Of a DNA stretch of 51,729 bases, positions 15,790 through 24,276 are shown piece after piece (within the stretch, counting starts at the first letter, position 1; each line of letters starts with the position of its first letter). The notes below the pieces were generated by a model that was not told the origin of the DNA, made no database searches, and was given only the letters and a program-made list of their open reading frames with translations. The translations under genes and the position numbers were made by a program. The DNA is taken from the sequence record MT446399.1; one strand, given 5' to 3'. Origin of the DNA: Escherichia virus TH25.

Positions 15790-16416
15790 TGTCTTCTTCT
15801 TTAGGTTTTAGTTCGTTACGCAAATCAAGTATTGCGTGGAAAGTTAACAAATCCATAATAGAGTAGGTTCCGTCCGATAGTTCTTTAAGAGAACAGAGAG
15901 AACTGTCCTCTATTACAGGACGGTGCAGGAAGTATTTTATTTCCGGGAACTTTTGAGTTAAATCGTTTCCGGACTCGAATTCTTCTGCTCGGCCATTTTG
16001 GATGCTTCCACCGCCTCCAATTGTCTGCGTTCGTTGAGTTCGAGCCCTTGCTTGAAAAAATCAAGGAAGTTCGATTCAAGAACAAATGCAAACACATGGT
16101 GCATGAGCATTAAATTGCCGTTGTACTTCATCTGCATAGTGCGTGGATTAACTTCGACACCATCAATGGTTGCCATACACACTACACGCTTAATTAATTC
16201 TGTTACTTCCGTATGAGTTCCACCTTGCTGCATCAAATGAATAATGTCTGCAAAGTTATATTTGTTCTCAACGAATGGGAATATCGAAATACCGAGTTTC
16301 TGAACAAGCTCGACCTGGAGGTCAAGAGCCTGGCTGGCACCGAGTTGTCGTGTACCAACCAAGACTATATCACCAGAGTCGGCTTGCAACTCGCGTTGGC
16401 GAAGTTCACAAGCCAT
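15782..16416 (-). CDS. Tail assembly chaperone G-T fusion product via -1 programmed frameshift
   Basis: -1 frame is open from 16060 down to a TAA at 15782-15784, overlapping the tape-measure ATG; shift site TTTTTTC at 16054-16060. Confidence 0.45.
15958..16416 (-). CDS. Tail assembly chaperone (gpG-like)
   Basis: 152-aa ORF between tube and tape-measure genes; contains slippery heptamer near its 3' end with a -1 frame open to the tape-measure start. Confidence 0.55.
   Translation of the reverse strand: MACELRQRELQADSGDIVLVGTRQLGASQALDLQVELVQKLGISIFPFVENKYNFADIIHLMQQGGTHTEVTELIKRVVCMATIDGVEVNPRTMQMKYNGNLMLMHHVFAFVLESNFLDFFKQGLELNERRQLEAVEASKMAEQKNSSPETI
16054..16060 (-). other. Slippery heptanucleotide T TTT TTC (candidate -1 frameshift site)
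   Basis: In-frame X XXY YYZ heptamer (GAT TTT TTC in G frame); both P- and A-site tRNA-Phe re-pair perfectly in -1 frame. Confidence 0.5.
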
Positions 16417-20098: not shown

Positions 20099-21106
20099 TT
20101 AAATACCGGAGTTGATGGAGATTGCTGCCGGATACATTGCCTGGAAGCCAGCGAAACGGCCACGACCAGGTACTTCATAAACCAGGCCATGCAGCTGAAC
20201 TGGTTGCCAAGTTAACGGCAGCGGTTCACGCAGACGGAAGGTACGGTTGCCCATAGCTTCACGGCACACAACTACGAAGCAATCTGCACCAGAAGCACCG
20301 TGACCTTTGATTGCGTTCAGACCCTTGATTTTGTCGCGGGAGTTGATGAACTGGTTGTTGTCAATGAAGAACTGACCGATAGTCTTGTCAGACTGCTCAG
20401 AACGTGCGGTGTTGAAGATGTACTGCTCATGCTCAACAGGCATCCAGATTTCAGAAGGACGCATGATTTTCAGAGTAGATGCGTACATTGCAGACACGGC
20501 AGTGGTCAGGTCGGCAATAACTTCGGTCGGAGTCTTCTCGTTCCACTTAGTAGAATTGCTAGCACCCTGAGCAACAGTTGCTTTGGTGACGTCTGGGTTT
20601 TCGAAGAAGCCAACGAAGCCGTTAGCCTGGTCGCCGTACCATGCAGCGGAGTTAACATACTGCTCGTAACCACGAATCGCAGCATTTGCTTTACGAGTTT
20701 CCAGCGGCAGACCAGTTACAGCAGCAGATGCTACTTCATCAATGTCGTAGTCGAATGCAGTACCAACAGACTTAACTGTTACGCTGTATTCTTTACCAGA
20801 AATGCTGGACTTCGGCAGGTCGGTTGCACGGGCGTTGATTACCTGAGCTTTACCAACATGGTTGTATGAACGGTAGGTCAGCGTGTTAACACCAGCGCCG
20901 CCAGTAGTATCAACACCGAAAGCAGCACGAGCTTCCAGTTCAGGATACAGGGTGTCGTAAGTTTGAGCTTCAATGAACTCAAGCTGACGTTGAAAGAACA
21001 CTGCGTCGTCGTCATTCAAAACAACGGTGCCAGAGTCCTGGATACGGGTGATGGCATCATTCAGTTCAAATTCAGAACCGTCGGCCAGTTTAATCATCTT
21101 TGGCAT
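20099..21106 (-). CDS. Major capsid protein (putative)
   Basis: 335-aa ORF downstream of scaffold and decoration genes; size and position. Confidence 0.55.
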   Translation of the reverse strand: MPKMIKLADGSEFELNDAITRIQDSGTVVLNDDDAVFFQRQLEFIEAQTYDTLYPELEARAAFGVDTTGGAGVNTLTYRSYNHVGKAQVINARATDLPKSSISGKEYSVTVKSVGTAFDYDIDEVASAAVTGLPLETRKANAAIRGYEQYVNSAAWYGDQANGFVGFFENPDVTKATVAQGASNSTKWNEKTPTEVIADLTTAVSAMYASTLKIMRPSEIWMPVEHEQYIFNTARSEQSDKTIGQFFIDNNQFINSRDKIKGLNAIKGHGASGADCFVVVCREAMGNRTFRLREPLPLTWQPVQLHGLVYEVPGRGRFAGFQAMYPAAISINSGI

Positions 21107-21150
21107 TAAATTTATTCCATTAGGCGCAGATTATTCTACGCCAATTAAAC

Positions 21151-21402
21151 TTAAGGGTGCGTAATGGTGATTGCTTTAGTAGCAGTTACACCAGATGCAG
21201 TCTTATGGGTTGCTTTGATTGTTGCAGAGGTCGCAGTACCAATCGTCGCAGTTGCAACAGTTACAGTACCATTGGCCGCCACAGAGACTCCAGTGACCGC
21301 TGGGCCAACAGTGAAGTTGTAGTCGCTAGCAACAGAGTTTGCAAACGTAAACAGTTTATCAACAGTTACGGTAGCATTTGTAGTTGAAGCATCAGCAGTC
21401 AC
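21151..21402 (-). CDS. Ig-like (Big_2-type) domain ORF, probably expressed as a C-terminal extension by -1 frameshift
   Basis: 83 aa, Thr/Ala/Val-rich beta-strand pattern; ORF begins at GTG; its frame is open upstream through a Pro/Thr linker into the 3' end of the preceding gene. Confidence 0.5.
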   Translation of the reverse strand: MTADASTTNATVTVDKLFTFANSVASDYNFTVGPAVTGVSVAANGTVTVATATIGTATSATIKATHKTASGVTATKAITITHP

Positions 21403-21443
21403 AGCCGCCGCTACCGCAGTAACGGTCGGTGCTGGAGGTGGCG

Positions 21444-21917
21444 TTACGACTTTGGGACTACGTTAATCATGACCGGAACAACATCACCAGCAGCAGCCGG
21501 ATAACGCAGAGCAGTTAGGTTGGTTGCCTTAGTATAGCCAGCACCAACACCACCAAATTGACCAGTGGCAGATACGCCAATGTTCTTGTCAGTGATTGCA
21601 GTAACCAGTTTAACCATGATTGGGCCAGACAGCATGACGCCCAGAGGCCAGCCAGCTTTGATTGCAACAGTGCCGTCACCAGGACGGGTTGCAGATTCGA
21701 TGTTAATCTGGCGCATAGTAATGCCCAGAACAGTGCCGTCGGCTCCAATACCAGGCTTAACCTGGTTGGAAGCAGTACCCTGAACAACAGCTAAACCAAA
21801 GTTAGCCATTTCAGTTTCAGCATTGAAAGTCAGGCGTTGAGAGTTAGTGGTAGCCAGGCCATATTGCTCACCCGCATATGCTGCACCAGTATTAATAGAC
21901 CAATCTTGCTTTGGCAT
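21444..21917 (-). CDS. Head protein (decoration/capsid-associated candidate)
   Basis: 157-aa ORF between scaffold-like gene and major capsid gene; carries slippery site at its 3' end. Confidence 0.4.
   Translation of the reverse strand: MPKQDWSINTGAAYAGEQYGLATTNSQRLTFNAETEMANFGLAVVQGTASNQVKPGIGADGTVLGITMRQINIESATRPGDGTVAIKAGWPLGVMLSGPIMVKLVTAITDKNIGVSATGQFGGVGAGYTKATNLTALRYPAAAGDVVPVMINVVPKS
21450..21456 (-). other. Slippery heptanucleotide C CCA AAG (candidate -1 frameshift site)
   Basis: In-frame X XXY YYZ heptamer 3 codons before the stop; -1 frame continues PKVVTPPPAPTVTAVAAAVTADASTT... into the Ig-like ORF. Confidence 0.45.
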
Positions 21918-21926
21918 TGTCTTACC

Positions 21927-22877
21927 TTATAAAGAGTTGAAGCGTTCTAAACGACGTTTGTTAGCTTCTTCGGAAATAGAAACTTTAGGCTTACGAGCTT
22001 CTGAATCTTTCTGAGCAGTAAATTGCATAGATTGATTCAGGGCATCGCCCAAAGTAATGGAATCACAATCTTCAAGTGCCGCATCGAAACGAGCGGAGAT
22101 ATAATCTTCACTCTTGTCGCTGAAATCCTTGTCATGCAATTTATTAACTACAGCCAACTTAACTTCCGAATCGGACTTGCCGGAGAAATCAAGACTGGAG
22201 AACTCGTCGCCAAGACGGGCCACATCAATGAGAAGCGCTGTACGAGCAACAACACGTTTGTCTACCTCAGCCTGGATGGCTTCATCGGATAGTCGTGCAG
22301 TTTCTGCATCAGCAAGTTTCTGCTCAAGGGTGCTAACCTTGTCAAGCGCTGCATCACGCTCTGCTTCAACAACATCAAAGGTTGCTTTATCAACAATGGA
22401 AATCTCTTCACCAGAGTCACCAATGCGAGTAGTCTGGGCGCGACCACGAACAACAATTGCAGCATGGTTAGGGATAATACGAACTTTGTCGAAGTCTGCA
22501 TCAGCATCTTCTGCAACAGCCAATTCTGCATTATGGCCCAGGGAGATTTGGTCAACACCAGAATCAACTAATCGAATAGCTTGCTCGTCATTCAAAACGA
22601 TTGATGCAGCCAAGAAAGAGCCGTCTGCAATTGGACGACCTTCGATAAACCCTTTCTGGAGTTCTTTGTTGTTCTTGATATTGACGTCATCTTTTGGATG
22701 ACCGATAGTAACCGGAATTGAACGACAACCTTCAATGGTTGCTTCATCAAATAATACTTCCGGCTTGGTGCGAACACGGCAAATAGATTCTGGGTCCAGA
22801 TGTTTTGCAATCTCACCAAGTTCTTTCGCTTTGTACAGCATAATGCCAGTACGAGCGATGGTGCATTCTGCAATCAT
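21927..22877 (-). CDS. Head scaffolding / maturation protein (putative)
   Basis: ORF 21927..23165 overlaps the portal gene; first ATG after the portal stop is at 22877; acidic, helical C-terminal half. Confidence 0.35.
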   Translation of the reverse strand: MIAECTIARTGIMLYKAKELGEIAKHLDPESICRVRTKPEVLFDEATIEGCRSIPVTIGHPKDDVNIKNNKELQKGFIEGRPIADGSFLAASIVLNDEQAIRLVDSGVDQISLGHNAELAVAEDADADFDKVRIIPNHAAIVVRGRAQTTRIGDSGEEISIVDKATFDVVEAERDAALDKVSTLEQKLADAETARLSDEAIQAEVDKRVVARTALLIDVARLGDEFSSLDFSGKSDSEVKLAVVNKLHDKDFSDKSEDYISARFDAALEDCDSITLGDALNQSMQFTAQKDSEARKPKVSISEEANKRRLERFNSL

Positions 22878-22959
22878 TTCGCCAGAGTCACGTAAACGAC
22901 GGGTCGTCAGAGTAGCTTTGTCGGTTAACAAAACTACTTCATTCACGGTATCTTCGTCG

Positions 22960-24276
22960 TTAAGCTGAACCAGGTTTTGGCTTTGCTTCACTTGCGTTAC
23001 CCTTTTGGATGTTAGGAGGTTTAGGATTTGGCTTTCCGAGGTCACAAGTTCCGAACACGCCCGAATGGAACATGACTTCGTTTGCAACTTCTGTAGTAAT
23101 GGTTCCATTGTTAACCAACAGGTCAACAGCGAATGCCAAATCTTTAGCTCGCTTCGCTTTCTCAACGTTGGATTCAGGGAAGATATCTAACCATTCATAG
23201 TCATATTCTTCAATGCCAAAGTGCGCCTGGACAATCTTATCTACCACATCTAAACGTGGGTCAAAGACAGAAGTCTGCAAGCCTGTCAACAAGTCGATAT
23301 AGTTTACGAGGTCAGATTCGCCCGTAGCGTTCATACCGTCTGGAGATGCAGAAAGGAAACGTGTAGCCGGAATACCAACTGCGGCAGCAACTATCTTTAA
23401 GTATTCCCAAATCAAATCTTTCACACCAGATAGTGCAATTGACTTGGTGTCATACTTCTCAGTGTTGTCGAGAATTAGGACATTATAAATACTCTTTGCC
23501 AGCTTCATGAGTTTGAAGCGCTTCATCACAGCAGCTTCACCTTCCGGTGATGTAAGCAGAGATTGTAAGCCTTCAACAGTTACCACATCAATTGTGGCTT
23601 CCTGCGCTAAACTGGCAGCAGCAGCAGCGGTTGTATAAAATTGGTCAATCGTTTTCAGCAGTGGAATAAGTACCGAATCAGAATACCACATGTTACGTTG
23701 GAATTCGAACAGTGGCAGTTCAGTACCCTCGAACCGAAGGAAACGAGTGTAGTGGATATAGCCGGGATACCCCGCCAAAGTGTAAAACTCTGGCAAACCA
23801 TAATGAGGACTCAGAGGGTCCAACACCATAGTTCCTGCGGCAAATAAGCGTGAGCGGTCAATAACTCTCATGGATTTAATACATCCAGTCTTCAAGTTAT
23901 CCAGACGCAATGGTGTATCAAGTTTACCCGTCCCTTTCAGGTCGAGTAATACAAATGAAGTCCCATAGAGTCTGGCCCATTGATATGCTTCACGGAACAG
24001 TTTGCGGATACGAAGTTTCTTATCTGCTTTACGTCCTTCTTCACTATCAATATGTCGCCACTTACGCGTCATGTCTTGAGGAATGACAGTGCACACTTTC
24101 TGCGATACCCAATCCTCACGGAAGCGGTTCATTAGTTCGCGATAGTTCGCGTTCTTATTGGAGAAAGACCACTGGTTAAAAGTAGACTTATCTGCCTGAC
24201 CGCCCAACCCCGTTACAAGGTTTTCTAATCCATCCGCAACTTTGACAGAGAGATTGTTTTTCTTTTTGGAAGTCAT
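22960..24276 (-). CDS. Portal protein (putative)
   Basis: 438-aa ORF downstream of terminase and upstream of scaffold-like gene. Confidence 0.55.
   Translation of the reverse strand: MTSKKKNNLSVKVADGLENLVTGLGGQADKSTFNQWSFSNKNANYRELMNRFREDWVSQKVCTVIPQDMTRKWRHIDSEEGRKADKKLRIRKLFREAYQWARLYGTSFVLLDLKGTGKLDTPLRLDNLKTGCIKSMRVIDRSRLFAAGTMVLDPLSPHYGLPEFYTLAGYPGYIHYTRFLRFEGTELPLFEFQRNMWYSDSVLIPLLKTIDQFYTTAAAAASLAQEATIDVVTVEGLQSLLTSPEGEAAVMKRFKLMKLAKSIYNVLILDNTEKYDTKSIALSGVKDLIWEYLKIVAAAVGIPATRFLSASPDGMNATGESDLVNYIDLLTGLQTSVFDPRLDVVDKIVQAHFGIEEYDYEWLDIFPESNVEKAKRAKDLAFAVDLLVNNGTITTEVANEVMFHSGVFGTCDLGKPNPKPPNIQKGNASEAKPKPGSA

What the first reader, a model, noticed from the sequence alone, without database searches (positions are those of the whole stretch)
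21151..21917. Head protein appears to acquire an Ig-like domain through a -1 programmed frameshift at C CCA AAG
The 157-aa head gene (21444-21917) ends ...VVPKS-stop. An in-frame slippery heptamer C CCA AAG (21450-21456) lies three codons before the stop. The -1 frame is open from 21462 and reads a Pro/Thr/Ala linker (PKVVTPPPAPTVTAVAAAV) straight into the 83-aa Ig-like ORF (21151-21402), which otherwise starts only at a GTG with no good ribosome-binding site. That gives a ~255-aa fusion product. Ig-like domains added to phage structural proteins by frameshifting are established knowledge; this particular case is inferred from the sequence.
Basis: partly seen in the sequence, partly recalled or inferred. 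Interest (0 to 1): 0.6.

Follow-up and report, generated by a model that had tools for sequence, protein, structure and literature searches.

The report
Frameshift adds Ig-like domain to capsid cement protein
In this phiEcoM-GJ1-like coliphage, ribosomes that slip back one base at C CCA AAG near the end of the capsid cement protein gene almost certainly make a longer protein carrying an Ig-like surface domain; this is a known phage trick, but here it is unannotated and conserved across a whole phage subfamily.

Summary
On the minus strand, the 157-aa gene (21444-21917) encodes a capsid cement/decoration protein (Pfam PF22758). C CCA AAG (21456-21450) lies in frame, one codon before the TAA stop. 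The -1 frame is open across it for 101 codons, giving a 255-aa, 25.5-kDa fusion.

The main evidence is comparative:
- All 27 distinct related loci that have a domain between the cement and major capsid genes carry an N NNA AAR slip site 0-3 nt before the stop, and the domain is always in the -1 frame.
- All 15 loci without a domain lack the site.
- The domain ORFs have no conserved start codon and no Shine-Dalgarno sequence.
- The linker upstream of any possible start evolves as coding sequence only in the -1 frame.
- Three unrelated domain classes are exchanged as cassettes right at the slip site.

The window's domain is Ig-like by predicted structure, although it has no Pfam hit. No stimulatory RNA structure or upstream Shine-Dalgarno-like sequence is conserved, so slippage is probably infrequent, as at the lambda G/GT site. 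No one has yet detected the fusion protein. I rate this a new, unannotated member of a known kind.

The parts
21444..21917 (-). 0-frame gene for the 157-aa (16.1 kDa) capsid cement/decoration protein, including its TAA stop at 21444-21446
   Evidence: ORF. Pfam PF22758 Phage_cement, E 9.3e-17, 61.9 bits against a cut-off of 27. PHROG 563, virion structural protein, E 9.5e-27. AF2 pLDDT 87.6. Foldseek matches to the capsid decoration proteins Pam3 gp6 (8hdt_G, TM 0.71), phage T1, XM1 and E217 gp24. The 4HA13 homologue was found in virions with 100% LC-MS coverage.
21450..21456 (-). Slippery heptamer C CCA AAG (X XXY YYZ). The tRNAs on CCA and AAG re-pair with CCC and AAA, and the G at 21450 is read twice.
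   Evidence: Sequence. Conserved as N NNA AAR in 27 of 27 domain-bearing relatives. C_CC.A_AA.G is among the three most shift-prone heptamers in E. coli (PMC4066793; PMC5009743).
21427..21450 (-). Pro-rich linker VVTPPPAP, the first 8 codons read in the -1 frame after the slip
   Evidence: Translated. In the wider linker (codons 3-20 after the heptamer), synonymous versus non-synonymous differences are 138:91 in the -1 frame, 35:190 in the 0 frame and 1:208 in the +1 frame. Indels occur only in multiples of 3.
21154..21426 (-). Ig-like beta-sandwich domain (residues 165-255 of the fusion), followed by TAA at 21151-21153
   Evidence: AF2 pLDDT 87, nine beta-strands; the first strand (TVTA) lies upstream of the GTG at 21402. 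Foldseek PDB: T5 pb6 5ngj_A, E 9e-4, TM 0.60, and phi29 gp8. BFVD: Bacterial Ig-like/BIG2 domain proteins, TM 0.6-0.74. PHROG 13745 'Ig domain containing protein', E 5e-6.
21151..21917 (-). Whole recoded gene. Transframe CDS = complement(join(21450..21917, 21151..21450)), giving 255 aa and 25.5 kDa.
20099..21106 (-). Major capsid protein gene (context). It starts 44 nt after the end of the extension.
   Evidence: Pfam PF09950, E 4.9e-47.

Best explanation
The cement/decoration protein gene is decoded in two ways.

- Most ribosomes read ...CCA AAG TCG TAA and release the 157-aa protein. By homology this is a trimeric beta-tulip protein that binds the three-fold and quasi-three-fold positions of the capsid.
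- A minority slip back one nucleotide while the tRNA-Pro and tRNA-Lys sit on C CCA AAG. They re-pair on CCC AAA and continue in the -1 frame through a Pro-rich linker into a roughly 90-residue Ig-like domain, producing a 255-aa fusion.
- The fusion should co-assemble through its cement moiety and display the Ig-like domain on the outside of the head at sub-stoichiometric levels. The likely role is weak adhesion to surfaces, as proposed for other phage Ig-like domains.

What is shown here: the site, the frames, its conservation, the absence of independent start signals, purifying selection on the linker in the -1 frame, the predicted folds, and the presence of the cement homologue in virions.

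What is inferred: that slippage actually happens, its efficiency, outward display of the domain, and its adhesive function. My efficiency guess is 0.3-4%, because no stimulator is detectable. If the head is T=7 with about 420 cement subunits (also an inference), that would be roughly 1-17 fusion copies per head.
For: 1. Site and frames are as described.

2. All 27 distinct relatives with a domain between the cement and capsid genes have N NNA AAR 0-3 nt before the 0-frame stop, with the domain in the -1 frame: 21 C CCA AAG, 1 C CCA AAA, 1 G GGA AAG, 2 G GTA AAG, 1 G TTA AAG and 1 G GCA AAG. None of 15 domain-less relatives has a slippery site. That includes L033, whose cement protein is 88% identical to the window's, and L063, which keeps the Pro-Lys residues but encodes them as the non-slippery C CCG AAA.

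3. No domain ORF begins with an ATG; the only ATG codons in these ORFs lie deep inside the domain (Myduc codon 80, L025 codon 46), and candidate GTG/TTG starts are not conserved in position. The first candidate is at codon 18 in the window, 31 in ST32, 53 in the flopper-like locus, 57 in 4HA13, 59 in phiA050 and 81 of 97 in Fifi451. None has a Shine-Dalgarno sequence. Gene callers chose at least six different starts.

4. The linker upstream of those starts is under purifying selection in the -1 frame only. Synonymous versus non-synonymous differences are 138:91 in the -1 frame, 35:190 in the 0 frame and 1:208 in the +1 frame. Variable sites by codon position are 5/5/13. The 0 frame has 3-5 stops per genome in this stretch.

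5. Three sequence-unrelated domain classes use the same site. Homology between Y2 and Berlingot breaks 2 nt after the heptamer and resumes 3 nt before the capsid gene ATG.

6. In L058 the domain has been replaced by an independent gene, and that gene does have an AGGA Shine-Dalgarno and an ATG.

7. The first beta-strand of the Ig-like model is encoded upstream of the GTG.

8. C_CC.A_AA.G and G_GG.A_AA.G are top-ranked heptamers in E. coli, and A_AA.G is the best tetramer (PMC4066793).

9. None of the 95 cement homologue clusters is an in-frame fusion.

10. The fold search links the cement fold to the capsid-binding N-terminal base of the phi29 head fibre gp8.5. From my own knowledge, the rest of that fibre extends outward from the base, which would be a precedent for an outward C-terminal appendage.
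Against: - There is no direct detection of the 25.5-kDa product or of peptides from the extension. The 4HA13 virion LC-MS study lists only annotated proteins.
- No conserved stimulatory element was found. The window's downstream fold has z = -0.16. Downstream 60-nt folding energies in relatives range from -1.3 to -22.8 kcal/mol with no shared structure, and 25 of 27 loci have no Shine-Dalgarno-like sequence 6-17 nt upstream. Without a stimulator these heptamers gave only about 0.3% slippage in a reporter.
- Five relatives use heptamers whose P-site re-pairing is poor (G GTA, G TTA and G GCA before AAG). They would depend mainly on tRNA-Lys slippage.
- The loci compared are phylogenetically related, so the 27/0/15 association overstates the number of independent events.
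Confidence: 0.85

Rival explanations
1. The Ig-like ORF is an independent small gene, translated from the GTG at 21402 (83 aa) or by termination-reinitiation after the cement protein stop.
For: A GTG exists 42 nt downstream of the stop. Several GenBank records annotate a separate small CDS, for example ST32 gp56, Y2 gp67 and BSBP01 'Ig protein'.
Against: The GTG has no Shine-Dalgarno sequence and is not conserved. In the flopper-like locus, 4HA13, phiA050 and Fifi451 the first possible start lies 53-81 codons into the ORF, which would delete most of the domain. The linker between the stop and the GTG is conserved as protein in the -1 frame. The first strand of the predicted fold lies upstream of the GTG. 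This reading does not explain why the ORF is always in the -1 frame, always open across a slippery site, and never present without one. Where an independent gene does occupy this position (L058), it has an AGGA Shine-Dalgarno and an ATG.
Confidence: 0.06
2. The arrangement is a decaying remnant: either a formerly in-frame fusion broken by a 1-nt indel, or an untranslated leftover ORF with no function.
For: No product has been observed. L058 shows that remnants of the linker can persist without a domain.
Against: The ORF stays intact at about 95-195 codons in 27 divergent genomes whose cement proteins are down to about 50% identical. Substitutions in the -1 frame are mostly synonymous. New domain classes and tandem duplications keep being placed in the same frame. 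None of 95 homologue clusters is an in-frame fusion that could be the unbroken ancestor.
Confidence: 0.03
3. The fusion is made by transcriptional slippage (RNA polymerase stuttering) rather than by ribosomal slippage.
For: The phage encodes its own single-subunit RNA polymerase (ICTV profile). The outcome, a -1 frame extension, would be the same.
Against: The site has only runs of three C and three A. From general knowledge, known transcriptional slippage sites need homopolymer runs of about 6-9 or more. The conserved feature is the codon-phased N NNA AAG pattern, with the 0-frame phase kept in 27 of 27 loci. That is the signature of tRNA re-pairing, not of a homopolymer run.
Confidence: 0.02

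Closest known systems
Phage T3 major capsid protein 10A/10B
   Same: A -1 ribosomal frameshift near the 3' end of a head protein gene yields a minor, longer product with an Ig-like C-terminal extension that is built into the capsid (Atkins et al. 2016, PMC5009743).
   Different: In T3 the recoded gene is the major capsid protein itself. Here it is a separate cement/decoration protein (PF22758), and the extension is exchangeable among three domain classes.
Lactobacillus phage A2 major head and major tail proteins
   Same: A -1 frameshift adds an Ig-like extension to a major virion protein (PMC5009743). From my own knowledge, the A2 slip site is C CCA AAA, which is the variant seen here in L049.
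   Different: The host is Gram-positive and the carrier proteins differ. From my own knowledge, A2 uses a downstream stem-loop. No conserved structure was found here.
Lambda-type tail assembly chaperone G/GT frameshift
   Same: The mechanism looks the same: X XXA AAG (G GGA AAG, also used by relative L025) a few codons before the stop. From my own knowledge, lambda needs no stimulatory RNA element and slips at about 4%, fixing a ratio of short to long product. The window has its own candidate of this type at 16054-16060.
   Different: G/GT is an assembly chaperone that is not kept in the virion. Here both products are expected to be structural.
Ig-like domains on tailed-phage structural proteins (Fraser et al. 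2006 class; T4 Hoc, lambda gpV C-terminal domain, T5 pb6, phi29 gp8)
   Same: A small beta-sandwich domain sits at the C-terminus of a virion protein, and some are added by frameshifting. The window's domain matches T5 pb6 and phi29 gp8 best. The class B relatives pass the Pfam I-set, Ig_2 and Ig_3 thresholds.
   Different: The window's domain passes no Pfam Ig model. I found no report of this domain being attached to a beta-tulip cement protein.
phi29 head fibre gp8.5
   Same: The cement model matches the capsid-binding N-terminal base of the head fibre (6qyy, E 6e-4). From my own knowledge, the rest of that protein projects outward as a fibre from the same polypeptide, which would be an architectural precedent for a cement protein with an outward appendage.
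   Different: In phi29 the appendage is an in-frame fibre present on every subunit, not an Ig-like domain added by recoding to a minority of subunits.

Membership tests
Programmed -1 ribosomal frameshift site (tandem-slippage X XXY YYZ type) | In-frame heptamer that allows both tRNAs to re-pair in the -1 frame | tested here: met
   C CCA AAG at 21456-21450, in the correct phase. It ranks among the three best heptamers in E. coli.
Programmed -1 ribosomal frameshift site (tandem-slippage X XXY YYZ type) | The -1 ORF is open across the site and extends well beyond the 0-frame stop | tested here: met
   Open from 21462; 101 codons from the heptamer, 97 of them beyond the stop.
Programmed -1 ribosomal frameshift site (tandem-slippage X XXY YYZ type) | Site, phase and frame relationship are conserved in diverged relatives | tested here: met
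   27 of 27 domain-bearing loci have it, 0 of 15 domain-less loci do, and there is one relic.
Programmed -1 ribosomal frameshift site (tandem-slippage X XXY YYZ type) | Stimulatory element: a downstream hairpin or pseudoknot, or an upstream Shine-Dalgarno-like sequence. This is common but not obligatory. | tested here: not met
   The window's downstream fold has z = -0.16. No shared structure appeared across 16 loci. 25 of 27 loci have no Shine-Dalgarno-like sequence 6-17 nt upstream. The only constant neighbour is the 0-frame stop, 0 or 3 nt downstream.
Programmed -1 ribosomal frameshift site (tandem-slippage X XXY YYZ type) | The transframe protein is observed | not testable with these tools
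   The only virion proteome for a relative (4HA13) did not include the extension in its search database.
Phage_cement PF22758 (E217 gp24 / Pam3 gp6 beta-tulip capsid decoration proteins) | Match to the family profile above the curated threshold | tested here: met
   61.9 bits against a gathering score of 27, covering profile positions 4-146 of 146.
Phage_cement PF22758 (E217 gp24 / Pam3 gp6 beta-tulip capsid decoration proteins) | Fold matches solved capsid decoration proteins | tested here: met
   AF2 pLDDT 87.6. Matches to Pam3 8hdt_G (E 1.2e-6, TM 0.71), T1 9kzj, XM1 7kmx, TW1 5wk1 and E217 8frs_f.
Phage_cement PF22758 (E217 gp24 / Pam3 gp6 beta-tulip capsid decoration proteins) | Abundant virion component; trimer at the three-fold axes of the capsid | tested here: inconclusive
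   The 4HA13 homologue had 100% LC-MS coverage and ranked in the top four by abundance in virions. Trimerisation and position on the capsid are inferred from E217 and were not tested for this phage.
Ig-like domains of phage structural proteins (Big_2 / I-set classes) | Beta-sandwich Ig-like fold | tested here: met
   AF2 pLDDT 87 with nine strands. Foldseek hits to the T5 pb6 and phi29 gp8 Ig-like domains, and to cadherin and immunoglobulin-superfamily domains. BFVD BIG2 and Bacterial Ig-like proteins, TM 0.6-0.74.
Ig-like domains of phage structural proteins (Big_2 / I-set classes) | Sequence membership in a Pfam Ig family (Big_2, I-set, Ig_2/3) | tested here: not met
   The window's domain has no Pfam hit even at E <= 10. 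It has only a PHROG 13745 'Ig domain containing protein' hit, E 5e-6. The class B extensions of relatives do pass: L028 Ig_2 35.8 bits against 27, and L025 Ig_3 43.7 and I-set 40.2.

The most novel reading that the evidence does not exclude
The slip site works as a conserved 'socket'. Cleopatravirinae phages exchange unrelated surface-display cassettes (two Ig-like classes, a third unclassified domain, and tandem copies) immediately downstream of an A AAG site that sits next to the stop codon. Expression there would need no RNA structure and would tolerate a non-cognate P-site shift (G GTA, G TTA or G GCA before AAG). That would imply that the adjacent stop codon, or some other unrecognised feature, stimulates single-tRNA-Lys slippage. 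It would make this a general, tunable way to decorate capsids sub-stoichiometrically with adhesins.
Probability: 0.25. Interest if true: 0.6.

Novelty: new member of a known kind. Interest (0 to 1): 0.45.

Why it matters
- **Annotation.** More than 20 deposited Chaseviridae genomes, including RefSeq records, either leave about 330 nt unannotated or call a truncated small ORF with an arbitrary start. The correct product is a 255-aa transframe capsid protein.
- **Phage therapy and biocontrol.** These phages infect E. coli, Erwinia, Pectobacterium, Yersinia and Proteus and are candidates for such uses. A variable Ig-like display domain on the head may affect adherence to mucus, plant or bacterial surfaces, and so their persistence.
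- **Recoding biology.** The family is a natural series of slip-site variants, from canonical to P-site-mismatched, all next to a stop codon and without detectable RNA stimulators. That is useful material for studying what sets low-level -1 frameshift efficiency in bacteria.
- **Engineering.** The cassette boundary points to a natural site for low-copy capsid display.

Tried and rejected
- **Literature.** Searches for a prior description (phiEcoM-GJ1 or Chaseviridae with frameshift or Ig-like; the ST32, PP101, Myduc, Mangalitsa and 4HA13 papers; the ICTV profile) found no mention of this frameshift. The original phiEcoM-GJ1 and Y2 papers, which contain virion proteomics, are not held in the library.
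- **Pfam.** The window's extension has no hit, so I could not support 'Ig-like' that way.
- **Homologue search with the extension.** It returned only short ORF calls from close relatives.
- **PDB sequence search with the cement protein.** No hits. Fold search was needed instead.
- **Stimulatory elements.** I looked for a downstream RNA structure and an upstream Shine-Dalgarno-like sequence. Neither is conserved.
- **Transcription signals.** There is no promoter or terminator between the two ORFs above chance.
- **In-frame fusion homologue.** There is none among 95 cement protein clusters.
- **Fusion structure model.** I abandoned it because MAFFT misaligned the short extension ORFs onto the cement region, and modelled the two parts separately.
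- **Script errors I corrected.** A frame-control calculation returned empty because of gap handling (redone). I gave heptamer offsets for L025-L028 that were 3 nt too early (redone).
- **Readthrough.** Rejected, because the 0 frame has 3-5 stops in the linker in each genome.

Full report
**What the window is**

The region is 98.8% identical to Escherichia virus TH37 and 91% identical to phiEcoM-GJ1. That places the window in Chaseviridae, subfamily Cleopatravirinae, genus Carltongylesvirus. The head module runs on the minus strand in this order:
- portal, 22960-24276 (PF06381);
- DUF2213 protease/scaffold, 21927-23165;
- the 157-aa gene, 21444-21917;
- the -1 frame ORF;
- the major capsid protein, 20099-21106 (PF09950).

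**Checking the observation**

The 157-aa ORF ends ...GTC CCA AAG TCG TAA. C CCA AAG occupies 21456-21450 in the phase needed for tandem slippage. The -1 frame opens at 21462 and runs to the TAA at 21153-21151. Re-reading the G at 21450 gives a 255-aa, 25.5-kDa protein, compared with 157 aa and 16.1 kDa for the normal product. The annotated-style 83-aa ORF starts at a GTG (21402) with no Shine-Dalgarno sequence. This is the only CCCAAAG on the coding strand of the whole window.

**What the two proteins are**

The 157-aa protein belongs to Pfam PF22758, Phage_cement (E217 gp24 / Pam3 gp6), at 61.9 bits against a cut-off of 27. Its AF2 model (pLDDT 87.6) matches decoration proteins in solved capsids: Pam3, T1, XM1, TW1 and E217. 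It also matches the capsid-binding base of the phi29 head fibre gp8.5. E217 gp24 is a trimeric beta-tulip protein at the three-fold and quasi-three-fold axes (PMC10329688). The 4HA13 homologue was recovered from purified virions with 100% coverage and was among the four most abundant proteins (PMC9699118).

The -1 product has no Pfam hit. Its AF2 model (pLDDT 87) is a nine-strand beta-sandwich. The closest solved structures are the Ig-like domains of T5 pb6 and phi29 gp8. The closest predicted viral structures are BIG2 and 'Bacterial Ig-like' proteins. PHROGs labels it 'Ig domain containing protein'. So 'Ig-like' is supported at the level of fold but not at the level of Pfam family.

**The comparative test**

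I assembled 43 distinct related loci from GenBank phages, IMG/VR, Logan/ENA assemblies and JGI metagenomes.

- *Loci with a domain.* 27 have an extra ORF of about 95-195 codons between the cement and capsid genes. In all 27 it lies in the -1 frame, is open across the end of the cement gene, and the cement gene carries N NNA AAR 0 or 3 nt before its stop. The sites are 21 C CCA AAG, 1 C CCA AAA, 1 G GGA AAG, 2 G GTA AAG, 1 G TTA AAG and 1 G GCA AAG.
- *Loci without a domain.* 15 have none: six Nefertitivirinae and nine Cleopatravirinae-like loci with 159-178-aa cement proteins. In these the capsid gene follows within 15-89 nt, and none has a slippery site. L033 is in this group even though its cement protein is 88% identical to the window's. 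L063 keeps the Pro-Lys residues but encodes them as C CCG AAA.
- *The relic.* L058 keeps the heptamer and a truncated linker (PKAVTPPAPAPTICS, then a stop). Its domain has been replaced by an unrelated 214-aa gene in the 0 frame, which has its own AGGA Shine-Dalgarno and ATG. This is a useful contrast: an independent gene at this position carries normal start signals.

The association gives Fisher p about 1e-11, not corrected for phylogeny.

**Evidence against independent translation**

No domain ORF begins with an ATG; the only ATGs lie deep inside the domain (Myduc codon 80, L025 codon 46), and candidate GTG/TTG starts fall at different positions. In several genomes the first candidate is 53-81 codons in, and none has a Shine-Dalgarno sequence. 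Automated gene callers picked at least six different starts. GenBank records annotate different starts or leave the region blank, and none annotates slippage.

The 18 codons after the heptamer lie upstream of those starts. They show 138 synonymous to 91 non-synonymous pairwise differences in the -1 frame, against 35:190 in the 0 frame and 1:208 in the +1 frame. Variation is concentrated at third positions (5/5/13), indels are only 3-nt, and the 0 frame has 3-5 stops per genome in this stretch. The first beta-strand of the modelled fold (TVTA) is encoded upstream of the window's GTG.

**Modularity**

The extensions fall into three classes with no detectable sequence similarity between them:
- Class A is the window's type.
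- Class B passes the Pfam I-set, Ig_2 and Ig_3 thresholds (for example L028 and L025).
- Class C, in Fifi451 and L048, is unclassified.

Some genomes carry two tandem domains (the flopper-like locus, L056 and L025). Y2 and Berlingot are close relatives, yet their homology stops 2 nt after the heptamer and resumes 3 nt before the capsid gene ATG. The domain therefore behaves as an exchangeable cassette attached at the slip site.

**Mechanism**

C_CC.A_AA.G and G_GG.A_AA.G are among the three most efficient -1 heptamers in E. coli, and A_AA.G is the best tetramer. This is because the single tRNA-Lys pairs weakly with AAG. Measured efficiencies were about 0.3% with no stimulator, up to about 3.7% with a favourable 3' context, and 54% with a pseudoknot (PMC4066793; PMC5009743).

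I found no conserved downstream structure, no upstream Shine-Dalgarno-like element, and no promoter or terminator between the ORFs. The only invariant neighbour is the stop codon 0 or 3 nt downstream, and its role is unexplained.

The most likely picture is a low-efficiency, lambda-G/GT-like slip that sets a small, fixed fraction of cement subunits carrying an Ig-like domain. That is inference, and the efficiency has not been measured.

**Comparison with what is known, and novelty**

Ig-like C-terminal extensions made by frameshifting are established for T3 10B, Lactobacillus phage A2 and the Listeria phages (PMC5009743). This case is therefore a new, well-supported member of a known kind. What is new is the carrier (a PF22758 cement protein), the spread across a phage subfamily, the cassette exchange at the site, and the fact that it is unannotated and undescribed in every record and paper I could search.

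My confidence that the frameshift product is real is 0.85. The gap is the absence of any direct protein evidence.

Noticed in passing
window 15885-16416 (-), heptamer at 16054-16060: A second likely -1 frameshift. T TTT TTC lies in frame in the 152-aa tail assembly chaperone gene (PHROG 11820, E 1e-57), 32 codons before its stop. The -1 frame continues for 92 codons to 15885. The gene sits between the tail tube gene and the 1225-aa tape measure gene, which is the classic G/GT arrangement.
   Followed up: partly
L058 1966-2664 (metagenome contig OGVK01000246.1): A relic of the system. C CCA AAG and a truncated linker remain, but the domain has been replaced by an unrelated 214-aa ORF with no Pfam hit. 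That ORF is in the 0 frame and has its own AGGA Shine-Dalgarno and ATG. Its function is unknown, and I cannot exclude a chimeric assembly.
   Followed up: partly
L008 / L039 (flopper-like), L056, L025: Some relatives carry two tandem copies of the extension domain in the -1 frame (195-197 codons). L025 has two I-set-like domains behind G GGA AAG. The displayed appendage therefore varies in length.
   Followed up: partly
window 21123-21142 (-); also L029, L031, L032, L034 just after the cement gene stop: An imperfect hairpin (GGCGTAGA-ATAA-TCTGCGCC) sits between the end of the extension ORF and the major capsid gene. Domain-less relatives appear to have a GC-rich hairpin in the same place, directly after the cement gene. 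I read this by eye from the sequences. It might be a processing or attenuation signal placed after the cement protein (plus domain) unit. It has no T-run, so the terminator scan did not flag it.
   Followed up: no
Cement gene 3' ends in all 27 domain-bearing loci: The 0-frame stop codon is always 0 nt (11 loci) or 3 nt (16 loci) after the heptamer. In most of the 3-nt cases the intervening codon is CCG (Pro). It is unknown whether this closeness stimulates slippage or simply reflects where the cassettes were inserted.
   Followed up: partly
NC_049466.2 (4HA13), locus L011 2233-2370: RefSeq annotates a 45-aa 'hypothetical protein' (gp58, with an out-of-series accession) wholly inside the -1 ORF. 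phiEcoM-GJ1, PM1, PP101, phiA050, Fifi451, Mauresque and Berlingot leave the whole region of roughly 300-360 nt unannotated.
   Followed up: yes
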